In this document: positions 7,095 to 60,196 of the stretch, piece by piece
How the letters are laid out: every line of letters begins with the position of its first letter
Position numbering within the stretch: position 1 is the first letter of the stretch
Assembly: GCF_963921235.1 (NCBI RefSeq)
Contig: NC_086097.1
Span: 152,770,001-152,834,000, forward strand
Source: Mobula hypostoma
Taxonomy: Eukaryota
DNA length: 64,000 nt
Reading direction: 5' to 3'
Made by a program: the position numbers and the translations under genes
Notes under the pieces: model-generated
Told to the model about the DNA's origin: nothing
The model's database searches: none
What the model saw: the letters and a program-made list of their open reading frames with translations, nothing else

Positions 7095-7250
7095 AAGCAA
7101 CACACATCAAAGTTGCTGGTGAACACAGCAGGCCAGGCAGCATCTCTAGGAAGAGGTACAGTCGATGTTTCGGGCCGAGACTCTGCGTTCACCAGCAACT
7201 TTGATGTGTGTTGCTTGAATTTCCAGCATCTGCAGAATTCCTCGTGTTTA
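7095..7250. mobile_element. Palindromic mini-element made of inverted Penelope pseudo-LTR tails
   Basis: Perfect 30-bp inverted arms 7095-7124 / 7187-7216; flanking 14-bp direct repeat aatgaacaatgaag (7084-7097, 7259-7272). Confidence 0.8.
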
Positions 7251-7314
7251 CATTTTTAAATGAACAATGAAGAATGCTTAATCAAAGATATATTTATGGT
7301 ATTTCCGATGAAAT

Positions 7315-8335: not shown

Positions 8336-11300
8336 GTATTAAATACTCAACAATCCTCCCTGTTTAGCTATAAACTCCAGTGCAATATAGAATGCATCTA
8401 AACTTACAGTGTTTATACATACGGTATGCAGAATACTATATAATACAACATATTATATAGGGGGGAGAGGGGGGAGAGAGAGGAGGAGACAAAGCCAGCA
8501 CAGTAATTGTCCCATTCAGGACTAAATATTTAATCGCTGTGGAGGATTCTTACTCTTGTGGGATGATGTATTTCCTGACAAGGGGCTCATTCTGCTTGGC
8601 CAGTGAAACCTGTGGCTGTGAAACAATCTCTGCTTTTGGGGCCTCCTCCATGGTGGTTGTAAGAGTTAACTCTGGGACAGCAGGGAATGGTTTTGAGAGC
8701 TCTGGACACCTTTCTTCTCCATTCCTCTTTCATCTCTAAGAGGATCTTTGCATCTTCTGGGTATGCTGGCATCCTGAACAGTGCATGGTAAGCTGCTCGA
8801 TCTGCTGATCTATCCCAAGCCACCAGACAAAGCTTTGAGCCAACAATTTCATTTTGACCATGCCTAGATCACTGGTATGTAGTTCCTCCAACTTTATCTT
8901 TCAGCTTTCATAATACAACAACTCTCAATCCCCACACAAAAGGAGCTAAATAAAGAGCAAATTCATCGCAGCACTAGTAAAAATGGGGGAGCTGGAAGTT
9001 CTGTTGCATATTCCAACCATGTTGAGGGACCGTGTAGACCTGAGACAGTGTGGGGTCTTTTCTGGTTTCTCTTTGGATCATCTCTCCCATAATAAGGAGA
9101 CTTTTGATTTGCATTAGGGAGAATATGTCAAAAGGAGTATCCTCTTTTGTAACTTTTTTCAGGTATTTCCCCTTCCAAGGCTAAACAGGACAAACCATCA
9201 ACATTTCCATGATAAGTTGTCCTCTTGAATTTGATCTTGTAATTGTGTTGTCCAGGAAACAGAACCCTACTCTACATTCATGCTTCTGTTGTTAATGAAG
9301 CACCCTTCTGCGGATTGAAAACGGACTCCATGGATTGGCGATCAGTGAGGAGAGTAGACTATCTCCCATACGAGTGCTGACTGAAACATTATATGCCCCA
9401 ATCCAGACTCAAGTCCTCCCTGTCAATCTGTGTGTAATTTTTCTTTGCAATGGTAAGGGAACATGATGCAAATGCTATGGGGCATTCACTTCCACCACTC
9501 AAAACATGACATGACTGCACTTAAGGTGAAGAATCAAACGCAAGCTTCACTGGACATTGTGGATCGTAATGTATGAGTATAGTGTCTGACATCACCACTT
9601 CCTTTATCGTTTTGAAAGCCACCTCACACTGATTTGTCCATTCCCATTTCATCCAGATCTGTAGTAATAAGTTCAAAGGGTGGAGCACAGTAGCCAGATT
9701 TGGCAGGAACCTGTATTAGTAATTGAAAAATTATTTTAAAAAACCTGCAACTGTGATATATCTTTTGGGCTTGCAGTATTCACCACTACTTGAATCTTTT
9801 CAGCACGCTTGTGCAAACTTGTGCATCAATGGTGTAACCACAATAAGTAATGCATGGCTTAAAGAATTCACACTTGTTGCATCAAGCCATGAGCCCATAA
9901 TCTTCCAATCATTTTAACACTGCCTTACGATTTAGGAGGTGATTCTTATCATCCTTACTCATAACAATTACGTCATCCAGGTAACACGGAGTGCCTGGGC
10001 AACATTGCAAGAGTACAGGAGCAGATGCTACTCCAAGAGTAAGACTTTTAGAGTGTTAAAGCCCTTTATAAGCATTTATGGTGAAAACACTTTGGACTCT
10101 TCTTCCACTTACATCTGTAGGTAGGTCACAGCTAAGTCATTTTTGCTGAAGTTTATCCCTTTGGAAAGATTTGCAAAAATATCCTCTATCCTGAGCAAAT
10201 GGTAATGATCTATTTTTAGTCCTGTGTTGATAGTGGTCTTAATATTATCATAAACCCTGATAGACTCATCATTTTTGGCTACTGGGGCCATTAGCATTGC
10301 ATATGGGCTCTACTCAATCTTGAAAAAAATTCCTTCAGTCTCCAAGTGATCTAGCGGACTAGCTATTTTATCATGGGTGATATAAAGAATAAGGTGAACT
10401 TTGTAAAACTTAGGTCTGGTATTTTCATTTAACACTATTTTACCCTTGATAAGTTTCATTTCATATTTAATTTGCTTCAAAATACTGCTCAGTTCGCTCA
10501 GTATACAACAGCCAGTTATCTCTTGTGCAATTGAACACATCTTCCTTTCCAAAATAGCCAGCTATTTCCGCTGTTTTTTTTAAATTTATGATTATTATCA
10601 CTTGGTATTCACTGTTGATGAACCCATGATTTTGTCTGTTTTCTGTTTTTTATTTTAACTCGACTGTCTCTGTCCCTTCCCAAAGAAGCATATGCTGTGC
10701 TGTTTTTTTTTAAACTTGAAAGTTTCTCACTGTGCTTCAACAAGTAGGAGTGATCTTGGGTTCTTTTTTCTCCCCATTCTCATTATCACTCCTGTGTTCT
10801 GTAACTCAAACACATAAAACTAATCAAAAGAAGAACAAAGGAGCTTGACATAATGGTGTATGTAATTCACTTACTTTTACATATAAATCATAATTATGTA
10901 AACAGCGAAGAATGCTTAATCAAACAATATATTTACAATGTTACTCAAATATTAAACACACAACAGAGTCTCATTCCAAAAATTTGATTGTTTATTCCTC
11001 TCCATTGATTGCCTGACATGCTAAGTTCCTCTAGCATTTTGTGTGTTGCTCTTTGATATTATCTAATCAGCTCTACGTAAATACTGTATCTGATTCAAGC
11101 TCATGTACTGATCACTGGAGCACTCCTTCTCATATGTTATTAATGGAAGAGAGAGACATGAAATTTTCAGTGACAGGACCATAAAAGCACAAACTCCTCC
11201 TACTCTCATTTTTTTTGCACTACCTTACTTTCCATTTTTCTATTTTCTATGATTTATAATTTATATTTTTAATATGTACTAATTTTTGCTATTTTTAATA

Positions 11301-13587: not shown

Positions 13588-15221
13588 CACTGCCTCAAAT
13601 ACACCCAATGACCTGGCCTCCACAGCTGCATGTGGCAATAAGTTCCACAAATTCACCACCCTTTGGTGAAAGAAATTTCTCCGCATCTCTATTTTGAAAG
13701 GGCCCCCCTCTATCCTGAGGCTGTCCCCTCTTGTTTTAGACTCTTCCACCATGGGAAATATCATTTCAACATCCACATCTCTGTCTAGGCTTTTCAACAT
13801 TCAAAAGGTTTCAATTAGATTCCCCTCAATCTTCTGAATTCCAGTGAGTACTGACCCAGAGTCATCAAATGTTCCTCGTTTGACAACCCTTTCATTCCTG
13901 GAGTCATCCTTGTGAACCTCCTCTGGACCCTCTCCAATATGAGCACATCTTTTCTAAGATGAGGGGTCCAAAACTGTTCACAATACTCATGGTGAGGCCT
14001 CACCAGCGCTTTATAAAGCCTCAGCATCACATCCTTACTCTTGTATCCTAGACCTCCTGAAATGAATACCAACATGGCATTTGGCTTCCTCACCACCGAC
14101 TCAACCTGCAAGTTAACCTTCAGGGAGTTCTGCACAAGGGCTCCCAAGTCCCTCTGCATCTCAGATTCCTGGATTTTCTCTCCACTTAGAAAATAGTCCG
14201 CACATTTATTTCTACTACCAAAGTGCATGAGCATGTATTTTCAAACATTGTATTCAATTGCCATTTTCTTGCTCATTTTCCTAATCTGTCTAAGTTCTTC
14301 TGCATCCTACCTATTTCCTCAACACTACCTGCTCCTCCACCAATCTTCATATCATCTGCAAACTTGGCAACACAGCCATTTATTCCATCATCTAAATCAT
14401 TTATATACATCATAAAAAGAAGCGGTCCCAACACCGACCCCTGCGGAATACCACTAGTCGTTGGCAGCCAACCTGAAAAGGATCGTTTTATTCCCGCTTG
14501 CTGCCTCCTGCCAATCACCCAATGCTCTAACCATGTTGGTAACTTTCCTGTAATACCATGGGTTCTTAACTTGGTAAGCAGCCTCATATGCAGCACCTTG
14601 TCAAAGGCCTTCTGAAAGTCCAAATATACAACATCCACTACATCCCCTTTATCTATTCTACTTGTAATCTCTTCAAAGAATTCCAACAGGTTCATCAGGT
14701 AAGATTTTGCCTGAAGGAAACCATGCTGACTTTGTACTATCTTGTCCTGTGTTACCAAGAACTCCATCACCTCATCCTTAACAATTGACTCCAACATCTT
14801 CCCAACCACTGAGGTCAGGCTAACTGATCTGTAATTTCATTTCTGCTGTTTTTCTCCTTTCTTAAACAGTGGAGTAACATTTGTAATTTTACAGTCTGGC
14901 ACCATGCAGGAGTCCAATGATTTTTGAAAGATCATTTCTAATTCCACCACAATCTCTAATGCTACCTCTTTCAGAACCCTAAGGTACAGTTCATCTAGTC
15001 CAGGTGACTTATGTCTTTTAGCTTTTTGAGCACCTTCTCTCTTGTCACAGAGACTGCACCCACTTCTCTTTCTTCACACACTACAACATCAGTCAAACTG
15101 CTAGTGTCTTCCACAGTGAAGAGATGCAAAATACTCATTTAATTCAGCAGCCATTTCCTTGTCCCCTGTTATTATTTCTCCTGTCTCATTTTCTAGCAGT
15201 CCTATATCCACTCTCACTTTA
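13588..15221 (-). mobile_element. CR1 LINE RT fragment
   Basis: ORFs 14273-14809 (QSQHGF, YLDFQKAFDKV, PQGSVLGP, FADD), 13815-14234, 13519-13800. Confidence 0.95.
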
Positions 15222-15299
15222 ACTGCAGACTCAGCCTTGACTGGAGGTAAGGCAAACCTTTGCTTCCGGTCAAAATACCAAGGCATTCCAGACCTCACC

Positions 15300-18155
15300 T
15301 GAATCAGAATCACAATCAGGTTTATTATCACTATGTCAGGAAATTTGTTGTTTTGCAGCAACTGTACAGTGTTATACATAAAAATTACAAAATGTTAAAA
15401 AGTTACAGTAATATATATTTTTAAAAAAGAGCAAAATAGTGATGTAGTGTTCATAGGTTCATAAATCTGGACAAGAAAAAGTTTTTCCTAAAAGATTTAG
15501 TGGGCATTATCAGGCTCCTTTACTCCTCCCTGATGGTAGCAATTTGAAGAGGGGATGTCCTGAATGGTGAAGCTCCTTATGATGGATCTTCTTGAGGCAC
15601 CGGCTTTGAAGATGTCCTCAATAGTTGGAAAACTAGTTCCCATGATTGAGTTGGCTGAGTTTACAACCCTCTACAACTATTTTTTATCCTTTGCATTGGA
15701 CCCTCCAGATCAGGCAGTGATCCAACCAGACAGAATGCTCTGCATGGTGTATCTATAGAAATTTGCTAGAGCTTTTGGTGGCACAACAAATCTCCTTAAT
15801 CACCTAATGAATGAAGTAAAGCCGATGGCATGCCTTCTTCGTAATTGCATCAATATGTTAGGCTCACGATAGAGCTAGGAGCTTGAAGCTAGCTGCTCAT
15901 TATTTCCATTGCTGACCCCTCAATAGATATTGGTCTATGCTTTCCCAATTTCTCCTTCCTGAAGTCCATGATCATTTACTTAGTCTTACTGATGTTGAAT
16001 GTAAGATTATGTTGTAACATAGAAACATAGAAACATAGAAAATAGGTGCAGGAGTAGGCCATTCGGCCCTTCGAGCCTGCACCGCCATTTATTATGATCA
16101 TGGCTGATCATCCAACTCAGAACCCCACCCCAGCCTTCCCTCCATACCCCCTGACCCCCGTAGCCACAAGGGCCATATCTAACTCCCTCTTAAATATAGC
16201 CAATGAACTGGCCTCAACTGTTTCCTGTGGCAGAGAATTCCACAGATTCACCACTCTCTGCGTGAAGTTTTTCCTCATCTCGGTCCTAAAAGGCTTCCCC
16301 TCTATCCTCAAACTGTGGCCCCCCGTTCTGGACTTCCCCAACATCGGGAACAATCTTCCTGCATTTAGCCTGTCCAATCCCTTTAGGATTTTATACGTTT
16401 CATTCAGATCCCCCCTCAATCTTCTAAATTCCAACGAGTACAAGCCCAGTTCATCCAGTCTTTCTTCATATGAAAGTCCTGCCATCCCAGGAATCAATCT
16501 GGTGAACCTTCTTTGTACTCCCTCTATGGCAAGGATGTCTTTCCTCAGATTAGGGGACCAAAACTGCACACAATACTCCAGTGTGGTCTCACCAAGGCCT
16601 TGTACAACTGCAGTAGTACCTCCCTACTCCTGTACTCGAATCCTCTCACTATAAATGCCAGCATACCATTCGCCTTTTTCACCGCCTGCTGTACCTGCAT
16701 GCCCACTTTCAATGACTGGTGTATAATGACACCCAGGTCTCGTTGCACCTCCCCTTTTCCTAATCGGCCACCATTCAGATAATAATCTGTTTTCCTATTT
16801 TTGCCACCAAAGTGGATAACTTCACATTTATCCACATTAAATTGCATCTGCCATGAATTTTCCCACTCACCCAACCTATCCAAGTCACCCTGCATCCTCT
16901 TAGCATCCTCCTCACAGCTAACACTGCCACCCAGCTTCGTGTCATCCGCAAACTTGGAGATGCTGCATTCAATTCCCTCATCCAAGTCATTAATATATAT
17001 TGTAAACAACTGGGGTCCCAGCACTGAGCCTTGCGGTACCCCACTAGTCACCGCCTGCCATTCTGAAAAGGTCCCGTTTATTCCCACTCTTTGCTTCCTG
17101 TCTGCTAACCAATTCTACACCCACACCAATACCTTACCCCCAATACCGTGTGCTTTTAGTTTGCACACTAATCTCCTGTGTGGGACCTTGTCAAAAGCCT
17201 TTTGAAAATCCAAATATTCCACATCCACTGGTTCTCCCCTATCCACTCTACTAGTTACATCCTCAAAAAATTCTATGAGATTCGTCAGACATGATTTTCC
17301 TTTCACAAATCCATGCTGACTTTGTCCGATGATTTCACCGCTTTCCAAATGTGCTGTTATCACATCCTTGATAACTGACTCCAGCAGTTTCCCCACCACT
17401 GACGTTAGGCTAACCGGTCTATAATTCCCCGGTTTCTCTCTCCCTCCTTTTTTAAAAAGTGGGGTTACATTAGCCACCCTCCAATCCTCAGGAACTGGTC
17501 CAGAATCTAACGAGTTTTGAAAAATTAACACTAATGCATCCACTATTTCTTGGGCTACTTCCTTAAGCACTCTGGGATGCAGACCATCTGGCCCTGGGGA
17601 TTTATCTGCCTTCAATCCCTTCAATTTACCTAACACCACTTCCCTACTAACATGTATTTCACTCAGTTCCTCCATCTCACTGGACCCTCTGTCCCCTACT
17701 ATTTCTGGAAGATTATTTATGTCCTCCTTAGTGAAGACAGAACCAAAGTAATTATTCAATTGGTCTGCCATGTCCTTGCTCCCCATAATCAATTCACCTG
17801 TTTCTGTCTGCAGGGGACCTACGTTACCAGTCTTTTCCTTTTTACATATCTATAAAAGCTTTTACAGTCCGTTTTTATGTTCCCTGCCGGTTTTCTCTCA
17901 TAATCTTTTTTCCCCTTCCTAATTAAGCTCTTTGTCCTCCTCTGCTGAACTGTGACAGCACTCAACCAGCCAATTTGCCTCACAGGTACATCTCCTCATC
18001 ACCTTCACACCAACAACAGCTCTGTCACCAGTGAATTTAGAGATAGCGTTTGAGGTCTGCCTAGCCACACAGTCCATGGGTGTAGAGAGAGTACAGCAGC
18101 GTTAAGCACACATCGTTGAGAAGCCTCTGTGTTGATTGTCAGCAAGGAGATGTTC
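15300..18155 (-). mobile_element. Rex1/Babar/L2-type LINE remnant split by a CR1 insertion (15300-16017 and 17952-18155)
   Basis: Tail gaatcagaatcacaatcaggtttatt at 15301; RT-thumb-like sequence up to 16017 resumes at 17952; tgtaaca/tgtgaca flank the CR1. Confidence 0.7.
16017..17951 (-). mobile_element. CR1 LINE, 5'-truncated, young subfamily
   Basis: ORFs 17115-17792, 16545-17087, 16117-16569 carry the complete RT motifs; (agaaacat)n tail at 16017-16040; very similar to the copy at 24791-27861. Confidence 0.97.
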
Positions 18156-18181
18156 AAAGGCTCACTTATTATCAAGGTATG

Positions 18182-18490
18182 TACGAGGGGTGATTGATAA
18201 GTTTGTGGCCTAAGGTAGAGAGAATCAATTTTAGAAAACCTAGCACATTTATTTTTCCTACATTTACACACTTAGTCCAGTGGTCTTGGAGCATATGGAT
18301 CCCTTCTTTGTAGAAGTGGTTCACAGCAGGGGTGATTGATAAGTTCATGGCCTAAGGTAGAAGGAGATGAGTTATTAACTTCAAACTTTCTGCATTTTCA
18401 CTCATAGAGTTGAACTGCATGTGCATCTTATTCTACCTAAGGTTACAAACTTATCAATCACCCCTGCTGTGGACCACCTGGAGGTCCAAG
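18182..18490. mobile_element. Tc1/mariner-type MITE remnant with three TIR-like copies
   Basis: TA-CGAGGGGTGATTGATAAGTT at 18182; direct copy 18317-18362; inverted copy 18431-18476. Confidence 0.7.
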
Positions 18491-18494
18491 ACAC

Positions 18495-18664
18495 TCACAC
18501 TGTCTTCTATCATTTTGGATCTCCCCCTCCCCCTCCCACTTTCAAATCTCTTACTAGCCCTTCTTTCAGTTAGTCCTGATGAAGGGTCTCAGCCCGAAAC
18601 ATCGACTGTACCTCTTACTAGAGATGCTGCCTGGCCTGCTGCGTTCACCAGCAACTTTGATGTC
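18495..18664 (+). mobile_element. Penelope-like pseudo-LTR (solo)
   Basis: Closely matches 52835-52995, which directly follows a GIY-YIG ORF. Confidence 0.85.
18571..18608 (+). ncRNA. Minimal type I hammerhead ribozyme motif
   Basis: tagtc-CTGATGA-a-ggg tctcag ccc-GAAA-ca-TC-gactg: helix I tagtc/gactg, helix II ggg/ccc, conserved core; helix III AC(A)T is probably CpG-decayed ACGT. Confidence 0.75.
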
Positions 18665-18779
18665 TTTTTTACCCACCTAGGAGAGGAGATCCTATAGTAT
18701 TATTCAAAGTAGAACTGTGAAGTTATCAATAGTTCCTTGAAAAACGTATGTCTCTTAACTAATGCCAATATAATTTCAA

Positions 18780-19300
18780 CCAACAAATAATCTGCTGGAG
18801 GTACTCTGTAGGTCAGGCAGCAAAAGTCAATGGAAAAGAATTGTTGGCATTTCAGGTCTAAGTCCTGCATCAGGACTGAGAGTGGAGAAGTGAAGCCAGT
18901 ATAAAGAGCAGAAGAGGAGTGGCTAAAAAGGATTCTGAGGAGACTGGAGGACTGAGGAGGGTTGTAACATTGCAGGCAGGTTGTGAAGTTTCAAAGAGGT
19001 GAGCAGGGATGGAGTTGGATGAAAATCCAAGTTGAATGACAGATCAGGTCAGACAAAGAGTGAGAGAAAAGGGAGGAAAATAAACAGGTGGATCAAAGTG
19101 AGGGAGGGACATGTGAAGACAGGAGAATTAGTGGGCTGGAAGTTGTGAGTGATGGAACCAGAAGGGGGAAGAGGACAAAATGCATGAAAGGAGCTGGGGA
19201 ATAATGTGGGAAAGGGAACAAAAAACTGAAAGGACCAGAGGAGGACTAGAAGTGTGAAAGGTGAAATGCTTAAGAGGAAAATGGGGGGGGGGGTGTCGCG
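18780..19300 (-). mobile_element. Degenerate Penelope-like pseudo-LTR / 3' region
   Basis: Minus strand ctcagtcctgatgcaggacttagacctgaaatg preceded by a pyrimidine-rich UTR; similar to 35775-36280. Confidence 0.6.
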
Positions 19301-20058
19301 TTTCACTCAGCGGGTCATGTGAGTGTGAAATGAGCTGCCAGCACAAATGGTGCATGTGAACTCAGTCTGAATGTCTAAGAGAAGTTTGGATAGGTACATG
19401 GATAGGAGGAGTATGGAGGGGTATGGTCCACGTGCAGGTTGATGGGACTAGGCAGTTTAATTGGTTTGGCATGGACTATATGGACTGAATGGCTATGACT
19501 GTATGAGGATTGGCAATAAAATGTTACTTATTTAGTCGCTGCCACAATTCTATTCAACTTCCTCAAATTGGCTGTCACAATGCATCACTGATTTTACTTC
19601 AGACATAGTTGCCAAAAGTGACATTTGGTAAGTTCTGGAATGGTAAAAAGTGTGTATCAATATAATTTCTTTTTAAATCTTTACCTTCAATTGGGTACTT
19701 ACTAGTGTGACCTCTATGGTCACCAAGCATTGTTCCAAATAATAGTTGGTACCATTGTTTTCGCGAACATCGAATTGGATTAATTCTGGTTTAGTCTCAG
19801 TTATGACCCGGGGCCAAAATCAAGATGTCGTAGGACTTTTTCCATTTGATAGAAATTGGTGTTAGGCTGCTTGTTTTGTGTAACAGGCAGTATAGATGAC
19901 TAGTGTAAATGCTTATAATGGTACATATGTACATACTCATATGGATGTTAAACTTTGGAAGACCTGACAATTATATGCACTTAGGAAATACCAGTGATTG
20001 ATCTAATTTAGTTGGTTTTCTCATCGTCCATTTTATAATATAACCCAACAAACATATA

Positions 20059-23000
20059 TAGAATATAGAACATAGAATAGTACAGCACAGTACAGGCCCT
20101 TCGGCCCACAATGTTGTGCCAACCCTCAAACCCTGCCTCCCATATAAGCCCCCACCTTAGATTCCTCCATATACCTGTCTAGTAGTCTCTTAAACTTCAC
20201 TGGTGTATCTGCCTCCACCACTGACTCAGGCAGTGCATTCCACGCACCAACCACTCTCTGAGTAAAAAACCTTCCTCTAATATCCCCCTTGAACTTCCCA
20301 CCCCTTATCTTAAAGCCATGTCCTCTTGTATTGAGCAGTGGTGCCCTGGGGAAGAGGCGCTGGCTATCCACTCTATCTATTCCTCTTATTATCTTGTACA
20401 CCTCTATGATGTCTCCTCTCATCCTCCTTCTTTCCAAAGAGTAAAGTCCTAGCTCCCTTAATCTCTTATCATAACGCATACTTTCTAAACCAGGCAGCAT
20501 CCTGGTAATTCTCCTCTGTACCCTTTCCAATGCTTCCACATCCTTCCTATAGTGAGGTGACCAGAACTGGACACAATACTACAAGTGTGGCCTAACCAGA
20601 GTTTTATAGAGCTGCATCATTACATCGCGACTCTTAAACTCTACCCTCGACTTATGAAAGCTAACACCCCATAAGCTTTCTTAACTATCCTATCCACCTG
20701 TGAGGCAACTTTCAGGGTTCTATGGACATGTACCCCAAGATCCCTCTGCTCCTCCACACTACCAAGTATCCTGCCATTTACTTTGTACTCTGCCTTGGAG
20801 TTTGTCCTTCCAAAGTGTACCGCCTCACACTTCTCTGGGTTGAATTCCATCTGCCACTTCTCAGCCCACTTCTGCATCCTATCAATGTCTCTCTGCAATC
20901 TTTGACAATCCTCTACACTATCTACAACACCACTAACCTTTGTGTCATCTGCAAACTTGCCAACCCACCCTTCTACCCCCACATCCAGGTCGTTAATAAA
21001 AATCACGAAAAGTAGAGGTCCCAGAACAGATCCTTGTGGGACACCACTAGTCACAATCCTCCAATCTGAATGTACTCCCTCCACCACCACCCTCTGCCTT
21101 CTGCAGGCAAGCCAATTCTGAATCCACCTGGCCAAATTTCCCTGGATCCCATGCCTTCTAACTTTCTGAACAAGCCTACCATGTGGAATCTTGTCAAATG
21201 CCTTACTAAAATCCATATAGAGCACATCCACTGCACTACCCTCATCTATATGCCTGGTCATCTCCTCAAAGAACTCTATCAGGCTTGTTAGACATGATCT
21301 GCCCTTCACAAAGCCATGTTGACTGTCCCTGATCAGACCATGATTCTCTAAATGCCCATAGATCCTATCTCTAAGAATCTTTTCCAACAGCTTTCCCACC
21401 ACAGATGTAAGGCTCACTGGTCTATAATTACCTGGACTATCCCTACTACCTTATTTGAACAAGGGAACAACATTTGCCTCTCTCCAATCCTCCGGTACCA
21501 TTCCCGTGGACAACGAGGACATAAAGATCCTAGCCAGAGGCTCAGCAATCTCTTCTCTCGCCTCATGGAGCAGCCTGGGGAATATTCCGTCAGGCCCCGG
21601 GGACTTATCTGTCCTAATGTATTTTAACAACTCCAACACCTCCTCTCCCTTAATATCAGCATGCTCCAGAACATCAACCTCATTCATATTGTCCTCACCA
21701 TCATCAAGTTCCCTCTCATTGGTGAATACCGAAGAGAAGTATTCATTGAGGACCTCGCTCACTTCCACAGCCTCCAGGCACATCTTCCCACCTTTATCTC
21801 TAATGGGTCCTACCTTCACTCCTGTCATCCTTTTTTTCTTCACATAATTGAAGAATGCCTTGGGGTTTTCCTTTACCCTACTCGCCAAGGCCTTCTCATG
21901 CCCCCTTCTTGCTCTTCTCAGCCCCTTCTTAAGCTCCTTTCTTGCTTCCCTACATTCCTCAATAGACCCAGCTGATCCTTGCTTCCTAAACCTCATGTAT
22001 GCTGCCTTCTTCCTCCTGACTAGATTTTCCACCTCACTTGTCACCCATGGTTCCTTCACCCTACCATTCTTTGTCTTCCTCACCGGAACAAATTTATCCC
22101 TTACATCCCGCAAGAGATCTCTGAACATTGACCACATGTCCATAGTACATTTCCCTGCAAAAACATCATCCCAATTCACACCCGCAAGTTCTAGCCTTAT
22201 AGCCTCATAATTTGCCTGTCCCCAATTAAAAATTTTCCTGTCCTCTTTGATTCTATCCTTTTCCATGATAATTATAAAGGCCAGGGAGCAGTGGTCACTG
22301 TCCCCCAGGTGCTCACCCACTGAGAGATCTGTGACCTGACCTTGTTCATTACCTAGTACTAGATCTAGTATGGCATTCCCCCTGGTAGGCCTGTCCACAT
22401 ACTGTGACAGGAATCCATCCTGGACACACTTAATAAATTCTGCCCCATCTAAACCCTTGGAACTAATCAGGTGCCAATCAATATTAGAGAAGTTAAACTC
22501 ACCCATGATAACAACCCTGTTATTTTTGCACCTTTCCAAAATCTGCCTCCCAGTCTGCCCCTCTGTATCTCTGCTGCTACCAGGGGACCTATAGAATACC
22601 CCTAGTAGAGTAACTGCTCCCTTCCTGTTCCTGACTTCCACCCATATTGACTCAAAAGAGGATTCTGCTACATTACCCACCCTTTCTGTAGCTGTAATAG
22701 TATCCCTGACCAGTAATGCCACCCCTCCTCCCCTTTTTCCGCCCTCTCTATCCCTTTTAAAGCACTGAAATCCAGGAATATTGAGAATCCATTCCTGCCC
22801 TGGTGCCAGCCAGGTCTCTGTAATAGCCACTACATTATAATTCCATGTATGTATCTGAGCTCTCAGTTCATTACCTTTGTTCCTGATGCTTCTTGCATTG
22901 AGGTACACACATTTCAGCCCTTCTACCTTACTGTCTTTACACTGTTTATTCTGCTTCTCTTTCCTCAAAGCCTCTCTGTATGTTAGATCTGGCTTTACTC

Positions 23001-23621
23001 CATGCACTTCTTCCACTGCTCTATCGCTCTGGGTCTCATCCCCCTCGCAAATTAGTTTAAACCCTCCCAAACCATGCTAGCAAACCTACCTGCAAGGATA
23101 TTGCTCCCCCTCGAGTTCAGGTGCAACCCATCCAATCTGTACAGGTCCCACTTTCCCCAGAAGAGATCCCAATGAACTAAAAATCTAAAACCCTGCTCCC
23201 TGCACCAACTCCTCAGCTACGCATTCAACTGCCATCTCCTCCAATTCTTACCATCTCTGTCACGTAGCACTGGCAGCAATCCTGAGAACGTCACCCTTGA
23301 GGTCCTGTTCTTCAGCCTTCTGCCTAATTCCCGAAACTCACACTTCAGGACCTCATCCCTCTTCCTGCCTATGTTGTTGGTCCCAACATGTATCACGACT
23401 TCTGGTAGCTTTCCCTCTCGTACCAGGATGTCGTGCAACCAGTCAGAGACATCCCGGACCCTGGCACCCGAGAGGCAACAAACAATGCGGGTGTCCTTCT
23501 CACATCCACAAAATCTCCTGTCTGCTCTCCTGACTATAGAGTCTCCAATGACGACAGTTCTCCTCTTCTCCGTCCCACCCTTCTGCACCACAGGGTCAGA
23601 CTCAGTGCCGGAGACCCTGCC
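20059..23621 (-). mobile_element. CR1 LINE with near-intact ORF2 (APE + RT) and 3' part of ORF1 (esterase)
   Basis: 539-aa ORF (YLNARSI, ITETWL, GGGVAL, GEFN, LDLVL, SDH) in frame with 258-aa RT ORF across a single TAA; ORF1 fragment VVIGDSIVR, IHVGTN; (atagaa) tail at 20059. Confidence 0.98.
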
Positions 23622-24117
23622 ACATATGAATTGTTAAATGTTAAACTGAAAAATAAAACTGTTTTATTGAAGCAGGAAAGTCTTATTTATGACAGAAAAG
23701 TCTAGTGCCTTTAACCCTGGGCTGAATCCAGTCTGAGGCACAATGTAAAACAGAGTTTAATGACAGCATTGAAAATATTCCATTTTTCAAGACTGACATG
23801 CTTTAGGAAAATTGCAGCAACACCCACAAAATGCTGGAGGAAGTCAAGAACAGGAAAATTGTGATAACATTGATTATTGGAAAGTTGTTACAGCATTTGA
23901 GAGGGTGCAGAGGAGATGCATCAGGATATTACTCAGGAAGGAAATAAGGAGAGAGACAGGTGAGGCTAGGTCTGTTTAACCTGGAGCAAAATAAGTTAAG
24001 CAGGGACCCAATTGAAATGTATAAAAGTGTGAGGGATTCCCAATGGATGGTATGGATACGGTGGGCCAAATAGATTTTCTCTATGGTCAATGACATCAAT
24101 TTAAATGATAAGAAGAA

Positions 24118-24707: not shown

Positions 24708-24790
24708 TGGAATAATGTGGTGAGCAAGTATTTGAGGAGGAGATTGAGAAAACATTAAGAAAATTGCCCAGGAAAATATAAGTTTCAGGG

Positions 24791-33439: not shown

Positions 33440-34540
33440 CAAGAGAAAATCGGTTGGAAATCTGGAACGCTGGGAATCCCAAGCAACACACACAAAATAA
33501 TGGAAACTCAGCAGGACTGAGTATGGAAAAGAGTGCAGTCAACATTTCAGGCCAAAATTCTTCATCAGGACTGGAAAAAAAGAGGTGAGAAGCTAAAGTT
33601 AGAAGGTGGGAGGAGGGAACAAAGAAACACAAGGTGATAGATGAAACCAGGAGGAGAGAGTGGGGATGTAAAGAGCTGTGAAGTTGATTGGTAAGAGAAA
33701 TACAGGGCTAGAGAAGGGGGAATTTGATAGAAGAGGACAGAGAGCTATAGAAGAAAGAGAAGGTAGAGGAGTACCAAAGTGAGCTGATGAACAGGTAAGG
33801 AGATATGGTGGGAGAAGGAAAAAGGAATGGGTAATGGTGAAGGAGAGATTTGGGTGGGGGGGGGCATTACCAGAAGTTTGAGAAATTAATGTTCATGCCA
33901 TCAGGTTGGAGGCTACCCAAAAAGAATACAAGGTGTTTTTCCTTCGACCTAAGTGTGGTCTCATCGCAACAGTGGAGGAGGCCTTGGACTGACATGTCAG
34001 AATGCGAATGGCAAGCGGATTTAAAATGGGTAGCCACTGGAAGATCCTAGTTTTTATGGTGGAGGGAGTGTAGATGCTCAGTGAAATGGTCTCTCAATTT
34101 ACGTTGTGTCTCACCAATATACAGAATACAGCAGATGACTCCAACAGACTCACAGGTGAAGTGTCAACTCGCCTGGAAGGACTGTTTTGGGCCCTGAATG
34201 GTAGGGATGGAGGAGGTGTAGGGCAGGTGTAGCACTTGTTCTGCTTACAAGGTTAAGTGCCAGGAGGGAGATCAATGGGGAGGGATGAACGGACAAAGGA
34301 GTCACATAGGAGAAATCCCTGAGGAAAGAAGAAAGTGGAGGTGGGGAAGAGAAAGATGTGCTTAGTGGTGAGATCATCCTCTCAGTACCCTACTCAGGAT
34401 AGGACTCCTCTTGTCCTCACCTACCACCCCACCAGCTTCAATGTCTAGCACATAATTCTCCATAACGTCCACCATCTCCAACGTGATCCCATCACCAAGC
34501 ACATCTTTCCCTCCTCCTCCCCACTTTCTGCTTTCAGATA
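33440..34540 (-). mobile_element. Penelope-like element: GIY-YIG remnant, pseudo-LTR and 5' inverted segment
   Basis: Minus strand FTCESVGVICCI/LYIGETQRKLRDHFTEHL; pseudo-LTR 33440-33860; 34381-34540 is an upstream PLE segment (PLVLTYHPTS) in the opposite orientation. Confidence 0.85.
33536..33573 (-). ncRNA. Minimal hammerhead ribozyme motif (decayed helix II)
   Basis: Minus strand cagtc-CTGATGA-agaattttggcct-GAAA-tg-TT-gactg; perfect helix I. Confidence 0.6.
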
Positions 34541-35774: not shown

Positions 35775-36850
35775 ATAACTGCAGATGCTGAAACAAAAGA
35801 CAAATTGCTGGAGGGTCTCAGCAGGTGGAGGAAAAAGAATTGTCAACTGTTCAGGTCGAGACTCTACATCAAGACTGAGAGAGAAGAGAGGAGAGAACCA
35901 GTAGATGAGAGTGAGGAGTGAGGCATGAGCTGGCAGGTAATTGGTGGAGTAGATGAGGAAGACAATGATGGGCAGATGGAACCAATTAATGACAGGGGAA
36001 GATGTAGAGTTAGAGACTAAAAGGATAAGTGAGGACAACAAAGGCCTGCAAATCCTGGAACCCAACGAGTAAGGAAGGTGAGAAGTGGAATCAGATAAGG
36101 GAGGAATAATGGGCAGATGGGACCATTGGGTGAAAGGATAGGAGATGAAGTAGGATAAGCATGTGGCTGATCGACAGATAGAACCAGATGGCAGAGGGTA
36201 AAGAAGTGGGATTTGGGAGAAACTGAGTGGACCAGAAGGAAATAGAAAGCAACATAGGGGATGTAGTTTACCCGGAAATGGCAAATTTGTTTTTCTTCTA
36301 TTGGCTTGTAGACTACCCAGGCTGATTTTGAGACACTGTTCTTGTAGTTTGCATTTGGCCTTGCCCTGGCACTGGAGAAGGCTGACTCTGACTTGTCAGT
36401 GTAGGAACAGGAGGGGACAAATTGTGGACAAATCAAAGCAGTCACCTGGTCTATACTTAGTCTGATTGATGTAACGGACCCCACATAGTGAGCACTAAAT
36501 TCACTAAATTCAACAGACAAGTTTGAGGGATGTGAGTGCAAATCTCTGCCTCACCTTAGTGTCCTAACAAACTGAAACATCAACTGTTCATTTCCCTTCA
36601 TTGATGCTGCCTGACTTGCTGAGATCCCCCAGAATTTTGTGTATGTTTCTCTGCCTCACCTGGGAGAGCTGTTCAGGTCCTTGAATGATGGTGAGGGTGG
36701 AACTGTAAGGACCAGTGTTGCAGATGGAAGTCTCAGGGGATGGGAAGGGCTGGTGAGATGGTATGAGCAATTCAGTTAGTCAAGAATAGAGTAGCTCCTG
36801 TGGAAAGCAGAAATGGGTCAAAGGAAAAGATATAACTGGTGGAGGAATTT
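35775..36850 (-). mobile_element. Older Penelope-like element (GIY-YIG remnant + pseudo-LTR)
   Basis: Minus strand QGPEQLSQVRQR..CSLCGVRYINQT; pseudo-LTR tail at 35775-35880; a short plus-strand pLTR tail is inserted at 36557-36647. Confidence 0.7.
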
Positions 36851-45143: not shown

Positions 45144-45507
45144 TAATAATCTAGATTGCCTCTCCTTTACCCAAAATTGAAAAGATTGAAAGAGGGACTG
45201 TATATGGAAACCCATCCCTACAGATTCTTACCATTCAAGTCATGCCCTCTTTTCTTTACTATTATTAGGGAAGAGGTACAGGAGCCTAAAACTACATACT
45301 CAGCAATTCATCCATTCTGCCATCCATAAACACCTCATTATTCCTTTAATTTTGCACCTTTTATTTCTTTTTGTATTTTATAGTAATTCTAAGTCTTTGC
45401 ACTGTACAGCGGCCACAAAACAACAAATTTCATGTTATCAACAGAAATCAGTGATAATAAATCTGATTCTGATTCTGAGATCTGAGTTGGAATCTGGAGC
45501 AAACCGT

Positions 45508-45654
45508 TGGAGGAACTCAGTAAGACAGCCAGTATCTGTGGGAGGAAAGGAATCATCAATGTTTTGGGTTGAAACCCTGATACAGGGTTTCAATCAGAAA
45601 CGTTGATGCATCCTCTCCTTTCACAGATACTGCTTGACTCACTGAGTTCCTCCA
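45508..45654. mobile_element. Palindromic Penelope pseudo-LTR mini-element (~147 bp hairpin)
   Basis: tggaggaactcagt/actgagttcctcca, cagtatctgtg/cacagatactg, centre ttgaaaccctg-ata-cagggtttcaa. Confidence 0.8.
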
Positions 45655-46536
45655 GTGTTGAAGTATTTTATTTGCACCCTTCAGATTGTGCTAGGCATAA
45701 GGACCTGTTCAACCCTTACCCTATTCTTTGAAATAATGGGTGCAAATTCTTTCACACCTCTCTGAGTAAGTGAATGAAGCTTTGCATTTCATCTCAAAAC
45801 CAAACTGTTCAGAAGGGTTCTGGAGTGAGAGTTGGGAATGTATGTTCAAATCGTTCAGATAAGTCTTGAACCTATAAGGCATCGTCAGTCTCAATGACGG
45901 GGAACCACTGAACCAAGATTGACACCTAACTGCAGAGACAGATGCAACACACAACCAAAACTCTTTTGTTTTATATGATATCCATACATTGTTCATGAGA
46001 TTTTTAAATGACTGAATTAAATAAATCTTCAACCATTTTAATTTTCCAGTGTTTTTTTAAATTCACCCTGGGTTGTTTTTTATATGCTTAAGGTAAGGGA
46101 CAAAATGCTTTTGCAAATATTCATTACATGTCGCACAAGCTTATTTTCCCAACCATGGTAATTAATTTGCATTATAATGGAAACCATAAAGGCACCCCAT
46201 GACATGATCATTAATATATGCCACGCATGATTATAATTGTCTTGTTGCAGACAATCTGTCGCTGGGTGTTTGTCTTATCACTAGGACACAGAACAGCTGT
46301 TTGCACTCTGTCACTGTCTTTAACACCTTGGCAATTCAAGTGACCCATTTCAAATTTTTCAGCTAAATAATTGGAAGTATTTTATAAAGTTGAGCTCATC
46401 AAGATGAGCAGGGTGGAAGATTGAGCTTTTTTTGGCATTTCTGAAAATTTGATGAAAACTTAAGTTGGCTCTCAACAAATGTGCAATTGAAAATGTAATT
46501 CCAAATCAGTGAAAGATTTTGAGATATTCTTGAGAA

Positions 46537-52039: not shown

Positions 52040-53716
52040 CCTGCTGTACTCGTTTTACACTTATGACTGTGTGGCTAAGCACAGCTTTAGTGCCAGACTT
52101 AAGTTTGCTGATGACACCACTGCCATGCGCCAAATCAATGGTGATGTTGAATCAGCATATAGGAGGGAGAATGAAAATTTATCTGAGTGGTGCCTTCAAC
52201 TTCAACTTCTTACTTAATGTCAGCAAGACCACAGAGCTGATTATTGACTTCAGGAGAAGGAACCCAGAGGTCCATGAGCCAGTCCTCATCAGTGGATGAG
52301 AGGTGGGTAAGGATCAGCAATTTTAAATTCTTCAGTGTTATTATTTTGGAGGACCTGTCCTGGGCCAAGTACATAAGCGGGAGACCATTTCGCTGAACAC
52401 CTACGCTCTGTCCGCTAGAGAAAGCAGGATCTCCCAGTAGCCGCACATTTTAATTCCACATCCCATTCCCATTCTGATATGTCTATCCACGGCCTCCTCT
52501 ACTGTCAAGATGAAGCCACACTCAGGTTAGAGGAACAACACCTTATATTCCGTCTGGGTAGCCTCCAACCTGATGGCCTGAACATTGACTTCTCTATCTT
52601 CTATTAGTGTCCCACCTCCCCTTCGTACCCCATCCCTTATTTATTTGTTTATTTATTTATTATTTTCTCTCTCCTTTTTCTCCCTCTGTCCCTCTCACTA
52701 TACTCCTTGCCCATCCTCTGAGCTTCCCCCCTCCCCCTTTCTTTCTCCCTAGGCCTCCCGTCCATCCCATGATCCTCTCATATCCCTTTTGCCAATCAAC
52801 TTCCCAGCTCATAGCTCCATCCCTCCCCCTCCTGTCTTCTCCTATCATTTCAGATCTCCCCTTCTCCCTCCCACTTTCAAATCTCTTACTATCTCTTCTT
52901 TCAGTTAGTCCTGACAGAGGGTCTTGGCCTGAAAAGGCGACAGTACCTCTTCCTATAGATGTTGCCTGGCCTGCTGTGTTCACCAGCATTTTTTGTGTGT
53001 GTTGCTTGAAATTCCAGCATCTGCAGATTTCCTCGTGTAAACACAATTACAAAGAAAACACTGCAGCACCTCTACTTTTTTAGAAGTTTACAAAGATTCT
53101 ACATGACATCTGAAGCTTCGACAAACTTCTATAGATGTGTCGTGGAAAGTATATTTACTGGCTGCATCAGTGCCTGGTATGGAAACATTAACGACCTTAA
53201 ACAGAAAATCCTATGTAAAGTAGTGGGTAAGGCGCATTCGATCACAAGTAAAACCATCCCCACCATCGATCTCATCTACACAGAGCATTGTCGCAGCATA
53301 GTAGCACCCATCATCAGGGATCACCGCCACCCAGATCATGTTCTCTTCTTGCTCAGGAAGTAGGTACAGGAACCTTAGGACTCACACCACCAGATTCAGG
53401 AACAGTTATTACCCACTGAACCAGAGGAGATAACATCACTTAAATACACTTGCCCCATCACTAAACTGGTCCAACAACATATAGACTCACTTTTAAGGGC
53501 ACTTCATCTCATGTTCTTGATACTTATTTTTTTCTTTTTTATTTGCACAATTTGTTGCCTTTGACACACTTGTTGTCTGTTCTGTTGGGTGTGGACTTCC
53601 ACTGCTCTATTATGGTCATTGGATTTAACGAGTATGCCCACTAGAAAATGAATCTCAGTGTTGTATATGGTGACATATGTACTTTGTAAATAAATTTACT
53701 TTGACCCTTGAACTTT
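52040..53716 (+). mobile_element. Rex1/Babar/L2-type LINE RT remnant interrupted by a Penelope element
   Basis: KFADDTT, LNVSKTTELIIDFRR, NFYRCVVESIFTGCISAWYG; tail aataaatttactttgacc. Confidence 0.9.
52378..53040 (+). mobile_element. Penelope-like element, 5'-truncated (GIY-YIG C-terminus + pseudo-LTR)
   Basis: GDHFAEHLRSVR*RKQDLPVAAHFNSTSHSHSDM..RLEEQHLIFRLGSLQPDGLNIDFS; decayed hammerhead motif tagtcctgacagagggtcttggcctgaaa at ~52906-52943. Confidence 0.9.
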
Positions 53717-56030: not shown

Positions 56031-57472
56031 CTCTATACTATCCTTTGACCTTAGCAGTCACATACATAAAGGTACAGATTGGAATGTTTCAACAGTAAAC
56101 CCAACCATCATCCTCAGGCACAACTTAGTCAAATGACAAGTCCCCCACAGCCACCTCCCTATTTATCCTTTTGCATGAGAGGACATGGGCAGGGCTTGTT
56201 GCTCGATCCTGATTGGCTGGATCTGAATTGCCTATTCCTGATTGGTTAGTTTGCATTGGCCTTGTTCTGACTGGTTGATTTTCAGGCCAAACCCTCTTCA
56301 GCAGTGTGTGGACCTCAGCTGGAGCAACCTCTATACTCTTAGCCATAATATCTAAAAATGACACATTTATCCATAGGCAGTAAGTATGGGAGGCATTTTT
56401 AACATATTTAAGCAATCAGAACAAGGCCATACAGTTTATTTTGGAGGTAAAATGTGAGGTTACTTTGCCATTTTTAGATGTTATGGTAAACATCTGGCAT
56501 TGGGTGTTTACAAGAAGAAGACTCACACAGACCAGTGCCTGAATTTCCAGTCAAATCACCCAGAGAAGATAATACTTGGCATTGTTCAAGGCAAGGCACT
56601 AAAAGTAAATTTCTCATGCACAACCAGAGATGAAAAGGAAGAATAGTGCAAGAAGATCGGAGAAGTGTTTAAGAAAAATGGCTACCCTATGTACATAACT
56701 GAGAAAGGAATGAAGTGCAACACAACATTACAACAAAGACAACCTGCAGATAGAACGGTTAGTGTGCCATACAGTGGCAACCTAACTGAAAAGCTAAGAC
56801 GAATTTGTCAAAAGTGTGGTATCCATTTAATAGCAAAAAGTGAGGACACAATTGGAAAAGGGCTAAGTAAATTGGCACCTAGAAGACCTAAAGAACTGTG
56901 TCACAAAGTTGTGTGCTCCATACATCTATCACCATGTCAAGACATAAATACCATTGAGAATGGAGGGCCATTGAAGACCAGGATAGCAGAACATAAAAGT
57001 GCCTTAAACTACTTGGGAGCAGAACAAAGTGGAATCGCTGAACACTGCCTATCATGTTCGTGCAGACCAAGGTTTGATGAGGCCAACATCCCTTGCAAGG
57101 AAGATAATGCCTATAAGAGAAAGATTAAAGGTGCTGTATGTGGGAGACCTAAATGTAGATTCTAGGAGTGTAGAGATCTCGCCAGTCTGGGAGCGAACAT
57201 CCCTAAAAAGGGTTCGGCCTAATAAATTAACAAATCAGAATAAGATCAATACAGACTAACCAATCAGGAACAGGTAATTCAGATCCAGCCAATCAGGATT
57301 GAGCATAAAGCTCCAACCATGTCCTGCTCACTCAAGAAGGTATATAAGGAGGTGTCTCTGGGGGTACATGTGACTTGACTAATTTGCGCCTGAGGAAGAT
57401 GGTTGGGTTTACTGTTGGTATATTGTAATTAGTATCAGTAAATACGTGACTGTTCAGGGTAAAGAGAGTATG
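56031..57472 (+). mobile_element. Penelope-like element with inverted (tail-to-tail) pseudo-LTRs
   Basis: RT C-terminus (IQFILE..LPFLDV, VYKKKTHTDQCLNFQSNHP, FKKNGYP) and GIY-YIG remnant (LKTRIAEHK..SGIAEH); 56031-56342 is the inverted counterpart of 57162-57472. Confidence 0.9.
57260..57347 (+). promoter_or_regulatory. Putative pseudo-LTR promoter: two CCAAT boxes + TATA
   Basis: CCAATCAGGA at 57260 and 57289, TATATAA at 57341; both CCAAT boxes are kept in the inverted copy (tcctgattgg at ~56207 and ~56236). Confidence 0.5.
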
Positions 57473-58286
57473 GTTAGGTTAGATGTTCCTGTAAAATATA
57501 AGATTAGTTTTTCCATCTTTGCCATTTGGCAATAATCCAGTGGTGTGATCTCCCACTAATAGAATCCATAAGATTTCCTTTTGTTTATATCAACAGGATA
57601 TTACTATGAATTCAGTTTAAAGGTCTTCAAGTTCAAGTGTTTCTCTCTCCACAGATGCAGTCTGACCTGTTGCATTTTCCAGTAGTTCTTCTGTTATTTC
57701 AGATTTCTATATTCCAATATTTTAAATGAAATAAAAAAATCTAAAATATCAAGTGAACTAGATCATTAATTTAGCATCTACAATATTTTGTATTATTGCT
57801 TCCACATTTGTCCATCTAGTTTGTGGAAATATAAATTTGACCTTCTGTTTATAAACACAGGAATTGACCTGAAACCAAAAAATGTTGGAAATACTCAACA
57901 GTTCAGCCAGCAATTCAGCTCTAAGACAAAGAAGCAATAGTTCAGATTGTTTACACTTTGGGAAAAAACAAGGAAAAGTTTCCAAAATCTTTTAAGTTGC
58001 TGAGAAAATGAGCAAAACAAAAGATAATGTTCATGATAGAGTGGAGACTCGAGGCAGCCTAAATGACACAACTGATGGTGGTGTAGCTGAGAGAAGGGGG
58101 TGAAGATATGTGAGGTCATCCAGCATCTTTAAGTTTTAAAATAAACAAAGTCTATTGATTATAAATTAGTTAATTCAATGTTGTATCCTGGTCTACAACA
58201 TGCCTAGTAGGGTGGGGTGAGAAGCTGATTCTCAAACTTTCCATAGATTTCATGGAAGCCATATAAAAGACCAAAGATGGGAGGAT

Positions 58287-60059: not shown

Positions 60060-60196
60060 CAAACAAGAGAAAATCTGCAGATGCTGGAATTCCAAGCAGA
60101 GCACACAAAATGCTGGAAGATCACAGCAGGGTGGGCAGCATCTGTAGAAAAGAGTACATTACAGATGACGTTTCGGGCCAATACCCTTCAGCAGGA
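60060..60196 (-). mobile_element. Penelope pseudo-LTR tail with hammerhead motif
   Basis: Minus strand tc-CTGCTGA-a-gggtattggccc-GAAA-cg-TC-atctg, followed by the usual pLTR tail. Confidence 0.8.

What the first reader, a model, noticed from the sequence alone, without database searches (positions are those of the whole stretch)
18571..18608. Dispersed minimal hammerhead ribozymes carried by Penelope pseudo-LTRs (best-preserved copy)
Seen: tagtc-CTGATGA-a-GGG tctcag CCC-GAAA-caTC-gactg fits a type I hammerhead with an open helix I, 3-bp helix II and vestigial helix III. Related motifs recur at ~6911/10966 (split), 7159-7182, ~18845-18878, 33536-33573, ~35845-35878, 45577-45607, 52906-52943, 56078-56124, 57381-57430 and 60162-60196. 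Known: Penelope-like elements carry minimal hammerheads with palindromic helix III, proposed to cleave as dimers. Inference: this genome may hold a very large population of such motifs, and intact ones inside introns could cut host transcripts. An ORF/repeat annotation would not show them.
Basis: partly seen in the sequence, partly recalled or inferred. Interest (0 to 1): 0.75.

Follow-up and report, generated by a model that had tools for sequence, protein, structure and literature searches.

The report
Dead Penelope retroelement hammerhead copy
The flagged 38 bases are a real copy of the small self-cutting RNA motif that Penelope-like jumping genes are already known to carry, but it sits alone in a short dead fragment of such an element in a ray-like fish and has lost the pairing it needs to work, so it is ordinary.

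Summary
The motif at 18571-18608 (+) is there: helix I 5 bp, full core, helix II 4 bp (not 3). It is the only flawless hit of my descriptor in 64 kb. It lies in a ~165-nt, 5'-truncated end fragment (about 18500-18664) of a Neptune-type Penelope-like element (PLE). Two longer copies in the window join the same module to a GIY-YIG endonuclease end. The family letter at 18601 is G (54-80% of laid depth), giving the ACGU palindrome needed for dimer helix III. This copy has ACAU (duplex +3.8 against -3.1 kcal/mol), folds as a rod that hides the core and has no same-strand partner. None of the 11 sites named keeps core, both helices and palindrome; 6911 belongs to another repeat; 56078/57381 belong to a second, Poseidon-like family. 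Nine copies show no covariation. No host exon was found, so the intron idea is untested. The kind was described in 2014 (PMC4209133); a lizard PLE hammerhead needs the element's protein (PMC11167929). This scan has noted the same motif family many times elsewhere in this genome. New member of a known kind; low interest.

The parts
18496..18664 (+). 5'-truncated end fragment (pseudo-LTR 3' part, no ORF, no tail) of a Neptune-type Penelope-like element; 5' edge 18496-18503
   Evidence: 84% identical over 166 nt to 52838-53003; contigs cover 18502-18669, loose ends before 18503 match the upstream pLTR of the 52 kb copy, loose ends behind 18663 are the missing tail
18571..18608 (+). minimal type I hammerhead motif (the finding)
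18571..18575 (+). helix I 5' arm, pairs with 18604-18608 (4 Watson-Crick + 1 U.G)
   Evidence: sequence
18576..18583 (+). core C3-A9 (18576-18582), intact, plus the extra nucleotide between 9 and 10.1 (18583)
   Evidence: feature named in PMC4209133
18584..18595 (+). helix II, 4 bp with G10.1-C11.1, 4-nt loop; 18591 differs from the commonest or near-commonest family letter G
18596..18603 (+). G12-A15.1, vestigial helix III 18599-18602 (ACAU, palindrome broken at 18601), U16.1-C17; predicted cut between 18603 and 18604
   Evidence: numbering from established hammerhead convention
52363..53020 (+). longer copy of the same family: GIY-YIG endonuclease end (52380-52604), about 300 nt CT-rich pLTR, broken hammerhead 52906-52943 (G8 and U16.1 changed), tail
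   Evidence: (tblastn 86% to P0001, E 8e-44)
33458..34538 (-). sister-subfamily copy: C-x4-C-x2-C linker + GIY-YIG end (34381-33852), pLTR, hammerhead 33536-33573 (core kept, helix II and palindrome broken), with an inverted 5' piece at 34377-34538 (+)
35778..36722 (-). older Neptune-type relic with endonuclease remnant and broken hammerhead 35845-35878
   Evidence: (31%, E 4e-8)
18772..18899 (-). nearest other module, opposite strand, other subfamily, broken hammerhead 18845-18878; cannot partner the finding in one transcript
7098..7261 (.). small inverted + direct insertion of the same subfamily (95% to the finding's 3' part): minus arm starts in helix II (no CUGANGA), plus arm carries the ~33-nt tail; 12-nt direct repeat at 7086-7097 and 7262-7273
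45500..45659 (.). head-to-head pair of short modules joined at the hammerhead 5' edge; hammerhead 45577-45607 broken
60072..60196 (-). short module with intact ACGU palindrome, but A6 changed and helix I lost
10964..11050 (+). separate 5'-truncated decayed module (no CUGANGA); further decayed modules at 1609-1679 (+), 6678-6757 (-), 36572-36647 (+), 57633-57702 (+, weak)
56036..57480 (.). second, Penelope/Poseidon-like element: inverted pLTR 56036-56332 (-), truncated ORF end about 56400-57165 (+), pLTR 57170-57480 (+) with CCAAT boxes and a TATA-like site; hammerheads 56078-56124 (-, helix I broken) and 57381-57430 (+, GAAA lost)
18183..18495 (.). unrelated inverted-repeat element directly 5' of the fragment (mariner-type by my recall of its ends; label not from a call)
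   Evidence: inverted repeats

Best explanation
A dead, solitary genomic copy of the minimal hammerhead that belongs to the pseudo-LTR of a very abundant Neptune-type Penelope-like retrotransposon of a ray-like fish. In the active parent element the motif lies about 300 nt after the GIY-YIG stop, near the 3' end (shown). In a tandem precursor RNA, two copies would pair through the ACGU palindrome to build helix III and cut after GUC, probably helped by the element's RT-endonuclease protein (inferred from PMC4209133 and PMC11167929). Alone, the RNA prefers a rod in which core G5-G8 pairs with 15.2-17 (computed for this copy; the family letters pair the same way). This copy was made by reverse transcription that stopped about 70 nt past the motif (inferred), then took CpG-type changes, including 18601, which breaks the dimer helix beside its own cut site. 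It most likely does nothing.
For: Module continuous with GIY-YIG ends in two window copies. Relatives carry RT, the C-x4-C-x2-C linker and a sub-threshold Pfam GIY-YIG match (P0001: E 4.6e-4, 20.9 bits against cut-off 22.6); the linker is also in the window. That linker marks Neptune/Nematis (PMC8557442 passages). Inverted 5' pieces and a ~33-nt optional tail as described for PLEs. Sister subfamilies share just the 18572-18608 block: 1,147 and 1,096 loose ends before 18572, and 1,562 and 1,638 behind 18609, in the two large runs, so the motif was kept in active lineages. Family G at 18601. Duplex energies +3.8 (ACAU/ACAU), -0.5 (mixed), -3.1 (ACGU/ACGU) kcal/mol; rod probability 0.44 against 0.006 for the open-core fold. 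Essential G12 is changed in 26% and 19% of depth, its CpG neighbour C11.1 in 25% and 18%. No covariation in 9 window copies, 456 of 500 shuffles as high.
Against: No cleavage was measured. All core letters of this copy are intact, so it could still serve as the 'enzyme' strand for a partner RNA in trans. The A share at 18601 (up to 46% and 34%) is far above the mirror C>T at 18600 (9% and 6%), and the 7159 copy has the same A: reference bias explains this (the same skew is seen at 18591), but a subfamily that spread with ACAU is not excluded. G8 is changed in only 6% and 3% of depth. In the two small runs G12 and C11.1 shares do not mirror each other (42%/17% and 14%/44%). Contig depths are a biased measure and come from coded organisms. 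Clade assignment rests on the linker motif, not on a tree. No target-site duplication was found for this insertion.
Confidence: 0.9

Rival explanations
1. The copy is a working or exapted ribozyme that cuts a host transcript, in trans with another copy or with help from the PLE protein.
For: Complete core and helices I and II. Family very abundant, so partners may exist. A PLE hammerhead is activated by its protein in vitro (PMC11167929).
Against: Broken palindrome and rod fold. Nearest same-strand modules are 7.5 kb and 13.4 kb away and lack a core. No host exon found among 61 + 115 frames scanned, strand and gene context unknown. No monomer activity and low dimer activity (PMC4209133); no RNA-seq ends at the lizard cut site.
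Confidence: 0.04
2. A monomer of a non-autonomous, PLE-derived non-LTR retrozyme or SINE-like element rather than a truncated PLE end.
For: Many window copies are short modules starting at or inside the hammerhead (11 of 17 hits start at model positions 24-59). Retrozymes derive from pLTRs and occur in one chondrichthyan tested (bioRxiv 10.64898/2026.07.22.740005). A few contigs show head-to-tail repeats of the motif (table 5).
Against: This copy has about 70 nt of pLTR upstream that is collinear with an ORF-linked copy. No tandem array holds the motif in the window (0 of 9 rows). No tRNA gene found. The start clustering may come from the poorly conserved 5' part of my model.
Confidence: 0.05
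3. Chance resemblance to a hammerhead.
For: A single descriptor hit arises in 2 of 30 shuffles; no Rfam match.
Against: Position in a PLE pLTR, extra nucleotide 9/10.1, G10.1-C11.1 pair and family palindrome all match the published consensus; a second PLE family in the window has its own version at the same relative place.
Confidence: 0.01

Closest known systems
Minimal hammerheads (min-HHR) of metazoan Penelope-like elements, Cervera and de la Pena 2014 (PMC4209133; read parts 1-2 of 4, supplements searched by terms, file 1 not searchable)
   Same: Type I, short helix I, extra base between 9 and 10.1, G10.1-C11.1, palindromic 15.2-16.2 in the family, in the pLTR, mostly dispersed single copies; reported there for Xena, Poseidon and Neptune elements of fishes.
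   Different: Helix II is 4 bp (7-8 bp in Schistosoma, 6 bp in Drosophila virilis). Host is ray-like; 'shark', 'skate', 'Callorhinchus', 'Leucoraja' had 0 hits in the 2 supplement files searched. This copy has lost the palindrome.
Neptune clade PLEs (Craig et al. 2021, PMC8557442; 12 passages read)
   Same: C-terminal GIY-YIG, C-x2-5-C-xx-C linker, 5' truncation, inverted 5' copy, 30-40 bp optional tail, hammerhead in pLTR.
   Different: No full-length element in the window; Neptune against Nematis not separated by a tree.
Poseidon PAc hammerhead of Anolis carolinensis (Frangieh et al. 2024, PMC11167929; parts 1-2 of 4 read)
   Same: pLTR hammerhead followed by a short stretch and an optional tail. 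The 56036-57480 element looks like this clade.
   Different: The finding's family is Neptune-type. Protein-assisted cleavage is shown there, untested here.
Non-LTR retrozymes (Li, Clavereau, Pollet 2026, bioRxiv 10.64898/2026.07.22.740005; parts 1-2 of 5 and passages read, supplements not seen)
   Same: Type I hammerhead of pLTR origin, dispersed monomers.
   Different: Defined by tandem units each with a complete motif; none in this window.
Ultraconserved intronic hammerheads of amniotes (recalled, no call)
   Same: Type I hammerhead in a vertebrate genome.
   Different: Those are single-copy, conserved and fold as monomers; this is a decaying repeat copy without a stable helix III.

Membership tests
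PLE min-HHR (motif family) | Core CUGANGA, GAAA, UH with helices I and II in type I order | tested here: met
   helix I 5 bp, helix II 4 bp
PLE min-HHR (motif family) | Extra nucleotide between 9 and 10.1; G10.1-C11.1 pair | tested here: met
   A18583; G18584-C18595
PLE min-HHR (motif family) | Palindromic 15.2-16.2 in the family | tested here: met
   G at 18601 in 54-80% of depth in 4 of 4 runs; kept in the 60162 and 45577 copies
PLE min-HHR (this copy as an intact ribozyme) | Palindromic 15.2-16.2 in this copy | tested here: not met
   ACAU; duplex +3.8 kcal/mol
PLE min-HHR (this copy as an intact ribozyme) | Second same-strand motif to dimerise with | tested here: not met
PLE min-HHR | Located in a PLE pseudo-LTR | tested here: met
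PLE min-HHR | Self-cleavage as dimer or with protein | not testable with these tools
   bench test needed
PLE min-HHR | Covariation in helices across families | tested here: inconclusive
Neptune-type PLE | RT followed by C-terminal GIY-YIG endonuclease | tested here: met
   window pieces match P0001 at 65-86%; P0001, P0002, P0004 hit Pfam GIY-YIG below its cut-off, P0003 and P0006 do not (3 of 5); YIDD motif in P0001
Neptune-type PLE | C-x2-5-C-xx-C linker before the endonuclease | tested here: met
   P0001 and window 34220-34381
Neptune-type PLE | RT phylogeny places it in Neptune rather than Nematis | not tested
   no named reference RTs at hand
EN+ PLE insertion | 5' truncation, inverted 5' copy, optional 30-40 bp tail | tested here: met
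   7098-7261, 33458-34538, 56036-57480
Non-LTR retrozyme | Tandem units, each with a complete hammerhead | tested here: not met
   0 of 9 tandem rows hold the motif
Rfam hammerhead families | Score at gathering threshold | tested here: not met
Exapted intronic hammerhead | Inside a host intron, sense strand, conserved at the orthologous locus | tested here: inconclusive
   no host exon identified; no orthologous locus available

The most novel reading that the evidence does not exclude
The family's hammerhead is a two-state switch: alone it is locked in a rod (G5-G8 paired with 15.2-17), and it is opened only by a partner RNA or the element's protein. Because rays carry a huge dispersed pool of such motifs, including copies like this one with a full core, separate host transcripts could pair in trans and be cut whenever the element's protein is expressed, making the retrotransposon an inducible cutter of host RNA.
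Probability: 0.05. Interest if true: 0.7.

Novelty: new member of a known kind. Interest (0 to 1): 0.14.

Why it matters
Little for this copy: it is a relic of a described class. The family is a good source of test material, because what PLE hammerheads do in vivo is still open (PMC8557442 and PMC11167929 passages): a very abundant ray family allows counts of insertion ends relative to the cut site and of strand bias of intact copies in introns. Only if those showed cleavage of host RNA would it matter more widely.

Tried and rejected
Rfam at gathering score and at E<=10: no hammerhead family; the mir-2 hit at 7098-7213 is the inverted PLE pair. Host exons: Pfam on 61 selected frames, nearly all of 90 aa or more (of 98 listed; long CR1-type ORFs and some overlapping frames left out), and on 115 frames of 45-89 aa outside self-similar DNA gave only retroelement domains and weak hits. 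The best non-repeat hit, TSLPR_D1 at 32366-32533 (-), is below cut-off (E 9e-5) and has no PDB match at E<=1: rejected as an exon. Exons in frames under 45 aa or without a Pfam domain would be missed. Expression: no RNA holder listed; all runs laid were contigs, which cannot show ends or strand, and table 6 was empty. The unique right flank 18686-18700 had no cover in 4 of 4 runs, so presence of this insertion in those organisms cannot be judged. Viral contigs: 0 matches to the motif pattern. Metagenome relatives of P0001: 29 loci, 85 kb, one descriptor hit (L013, 1579-1619, opposite strand to the RT match), no match to my module profile: uninformative. Homolog search with the 56647 ORF among longer proteins: 0 of 125 candidates, and no BLASTP likeness to P0001; its GIY-YIG/HTH_animal label rests on Atlas features (0.96; families on 11-20% of members) and a weak tblastn (E 2e-4). 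Descriptor hits 41012-41050 and 56270-56305 (one mismatch each) rejected: they lie in CR1-type coding DNA and in the end of the PLE ORF. Target-site duplication of the 18.5 kb insertion: nothing beyond 6-8 nt chance matches. My drawn double-hammerhead energies were not used; only the 8-mer duplexes and monomer folds were. Lunse et al. 2016 was seen only as cited in a review passage (PMC6765202). Genome-wide counts could not be made, as no assembly was available.

Full report
1. Observation. They fit a type I hammerhead: helix I 18571-18575 with 18604-18608, core 18576-18582, one extra A, helix II 18584-18595, GAAA 18596-18599, two bases, then UC, with the cut predicted at 18603|18604. Helix II has four pairs, not three. 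My descriptor found this as the only flawless hit on both strands; 2 of 30 shuffles also gave one, so alone it is borderline. With one mismatch there were 3 hits against a mean of 0.33. Rfam has no matching family at either threshold. Homology settles it: a profile from 7 window copies finds 17 modules (seeds included), against 2 weak hits in the reversed window.

2. The other named sites. Of 11 sites, only 18571 keeps core, helix I and helix II. 7159 lacks CUGANGA. 18845, 35845, 45577, 52906 and 60162 have core changes. 33536 keeps the core but has lost helix II and the palindrome. 56078 has lost helix I and 57381 has lost GAAA. The 'split' pair is not one motif: 6911 sits in another repeat that recurs at 10797-10904 and 12360-12413, and 10964-11050 is a separate truncated module.

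3. What carries it. The motif lies in a fragment of about 165 nt (18496/18503-18664), 84% identical to the end of a longer copy at 52363-53020. That copy begins with the C-terminal 62 residues of a protein whose closest database relatives are named as ray proteins (Mobula hypostoma 92%, Hypanus sabinus 78-89%; 11 hits among 16 candidates), so the window is ray-like (inference). P0001 has an RT YIDD motif, a C-x4-C-x2-C linker and a GIY-YIG domain (Pfam E 4.6e-4, below cut-off). A second window copy (33458-34381, -) shows linker, endonuclease end, pLTR and motif in one piece, with an inverted 5' part. In both, the motif is about 300 nt past the stop. The linker marks Neptune/Nematis (PMC8557442 passages); I built no tree. 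The insertion at 7098-7261 shows the textbook inverted arm plus direct arm with a ~33-nt tail, and a 12-nt flanking repeat. The 56036-57480 element is a different family: two inverted pLTRs around a truncated ORF end without the linker, read as Poseidon-like (weakly supported).

4. The family. Contigs of four public runs were laid on 18470-18700 (organisms coded, depth is no copy number, reference bias applies). 28,676 of 21,294,172 and 21,739 of 20,913,867 records were laid in the two large runs, 1,580 of 833,374 and 4,023 of 1,095,021 in the two small ones. 18591 is G in 43-71% and 18580 is C in 45-66%; all three are CpG sites. Over a thousand contigs in each large run fit only from 18572 or only up to 18608 and go on with a sister-subfamily flank, so the hammerhead is the block kept between subfamilies: a sign of selection in the active lineages. 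Genomic copies are not protected: G12 is changed in 26% and 19% of depth and its neighbour C11.1 in 25% and 18% in the large runs (42%/17% and 14%/44% in the small ones). Against this, G8 is changed in only 6% and 3%. Nine window copies show no covariation (456 of 500 shuffles as high), and G10.1-C11.1 has become G.U in 5 of 9.

5. How it works. Shown: place in the pLTR, family palindrome, lesion in this copy. Computed: the ACAU duplex costs +3.8 kcal/mol against -3.1 for ACGU and -0.5 for the mixed pair; the monomer folds as a rod in which G5-G8 pairs with 15.2-17 (probability 0.44 against 0.006 for the open core); with 30-60 nt of flank it folds differently again. From the literature: single min-HHRs showed no cleavage, dimers and trimers low cleavage (PMC4209133); the Anolis Poseidon motif cuts only with the element's protein, is not needed for insertion in vitro, and left no RNA-seq ends at the cut site (PMC11167929). 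Inferred: in the parent element the motif trims tandem precursor RNA as a dimer or with protein help; this copy is a truncated product that decayed, with the mismatch beside its own cut site. The nearest module (18772-18899) is on the other strand; the nearest same-strand ones are 7.5 and 13.4 kb away and lack a core.

6. Host transcripts. I found no host exon, so intron status and strand are unknown, and the cutting idea is untested here and unlikely for this copy (about 4%).

7. Known and new. The motif class and its link to Neptune and Poseidon elements of fishes were described in 2014. I did not see a ray family named: three paper searches (listings only) and a term search of two of that paper's supplement files (one file not searchable); bioRxiv supplements were not seen and may list a chondrichthyan family. 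Earlier notes of this scan report the same motif family many times in this genome (61 notes fit the words, 8 shown); they agree but are not independent evidence, and their genome-wide counts were not checked by me.

8. Verdict. Observation real but overstated; Penelope origin right; intactness and host effect unsupported. New member of a known kind, interest 0.14. Boldest reading left open: a protein- or partner-switched pool of motifs that cuts host RNA in trans (5%, interest 0.7 if true).

Noticed in passing
window 45500-45659 and 31927-32077: Two head-to-head palindromic pairs of short PLE modules whose junction falls at the 5' edge of the hammerhead; at 45575-45587 the junction is a 5-bp hairpin, as fold-back priming of the cDNA would give. 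The inverted arm at 7098-7184 also starts in helix II.
   Followed up: partly
table 5, places 18608 to 18572: A few contigs in the two large runs (1 and 3 contigs at the main joint, some more at neighbouring places) repeat the hammerhead head-to-tail with 1-22 letters between: natural micro-dimers in related genomes.
   Followed up: no
window 18845, 35845, 45577, 32025: Four of nine aligned copies have C or T at core position 9 followed by A, which may be an older subfamily with a variant core rather than independent decay.
   Followed up: no
window 7159-7182 and 18596-18603: Both copies of the youngest-looking subfamily share the A that breaks the palindrome; independent CpG decay or a subfamily trait.
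   Followed up: partly
window 56036-56332 and 57170-57480: Poseidon-like pLTR with repeated CCAAT boxes and a TATA-like site about 40 nt before the hammerhead, a promoter layout unlike the CT-rich Neptune-type pLTR.
   Followed up: partly
window 13541-27732, 2811-5515, 37491-43688: Long runs of CR1-type LINE relics (label from my recall of their RT and endonuclease ORFs), several with long open frames such as 21451-23070 (-, 539 aa); 23220-23633 (-) has a weak GDSL/OSK esterase hit typical of their ORF1.
   Followed up: no
window 8739-8900 (-): Integrase zinc-binding domain (Pfam PF17921, E 2e-7): relic of an LTR retroelement.
   Followed up: no
window 18183-18495: Element with nested inverted repeats (18186-18219, 18328-18361, 18432-18465), mariner-type by recall, cut off at the PLE fragment.
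   Followed up: partly
proteins P0005, P0009, P0011: Ray gene models named as ATP synthase C3, VKORC1L1 and ABHD14A isoforms contain this element's endonuclease end: exonisation or annotation error.
   Followed up: no
L013 1579-1619 (-): A complete minimal hammerhead with a 7-bp helix II and an AUAU palindrome, 1.2 kb from a PLE RT fragment in a metagenome contig.
   Followed up: no
window 915-1075: Near-perfect tandem duplication of an 80-nt unit (98%).
   Followed up: no
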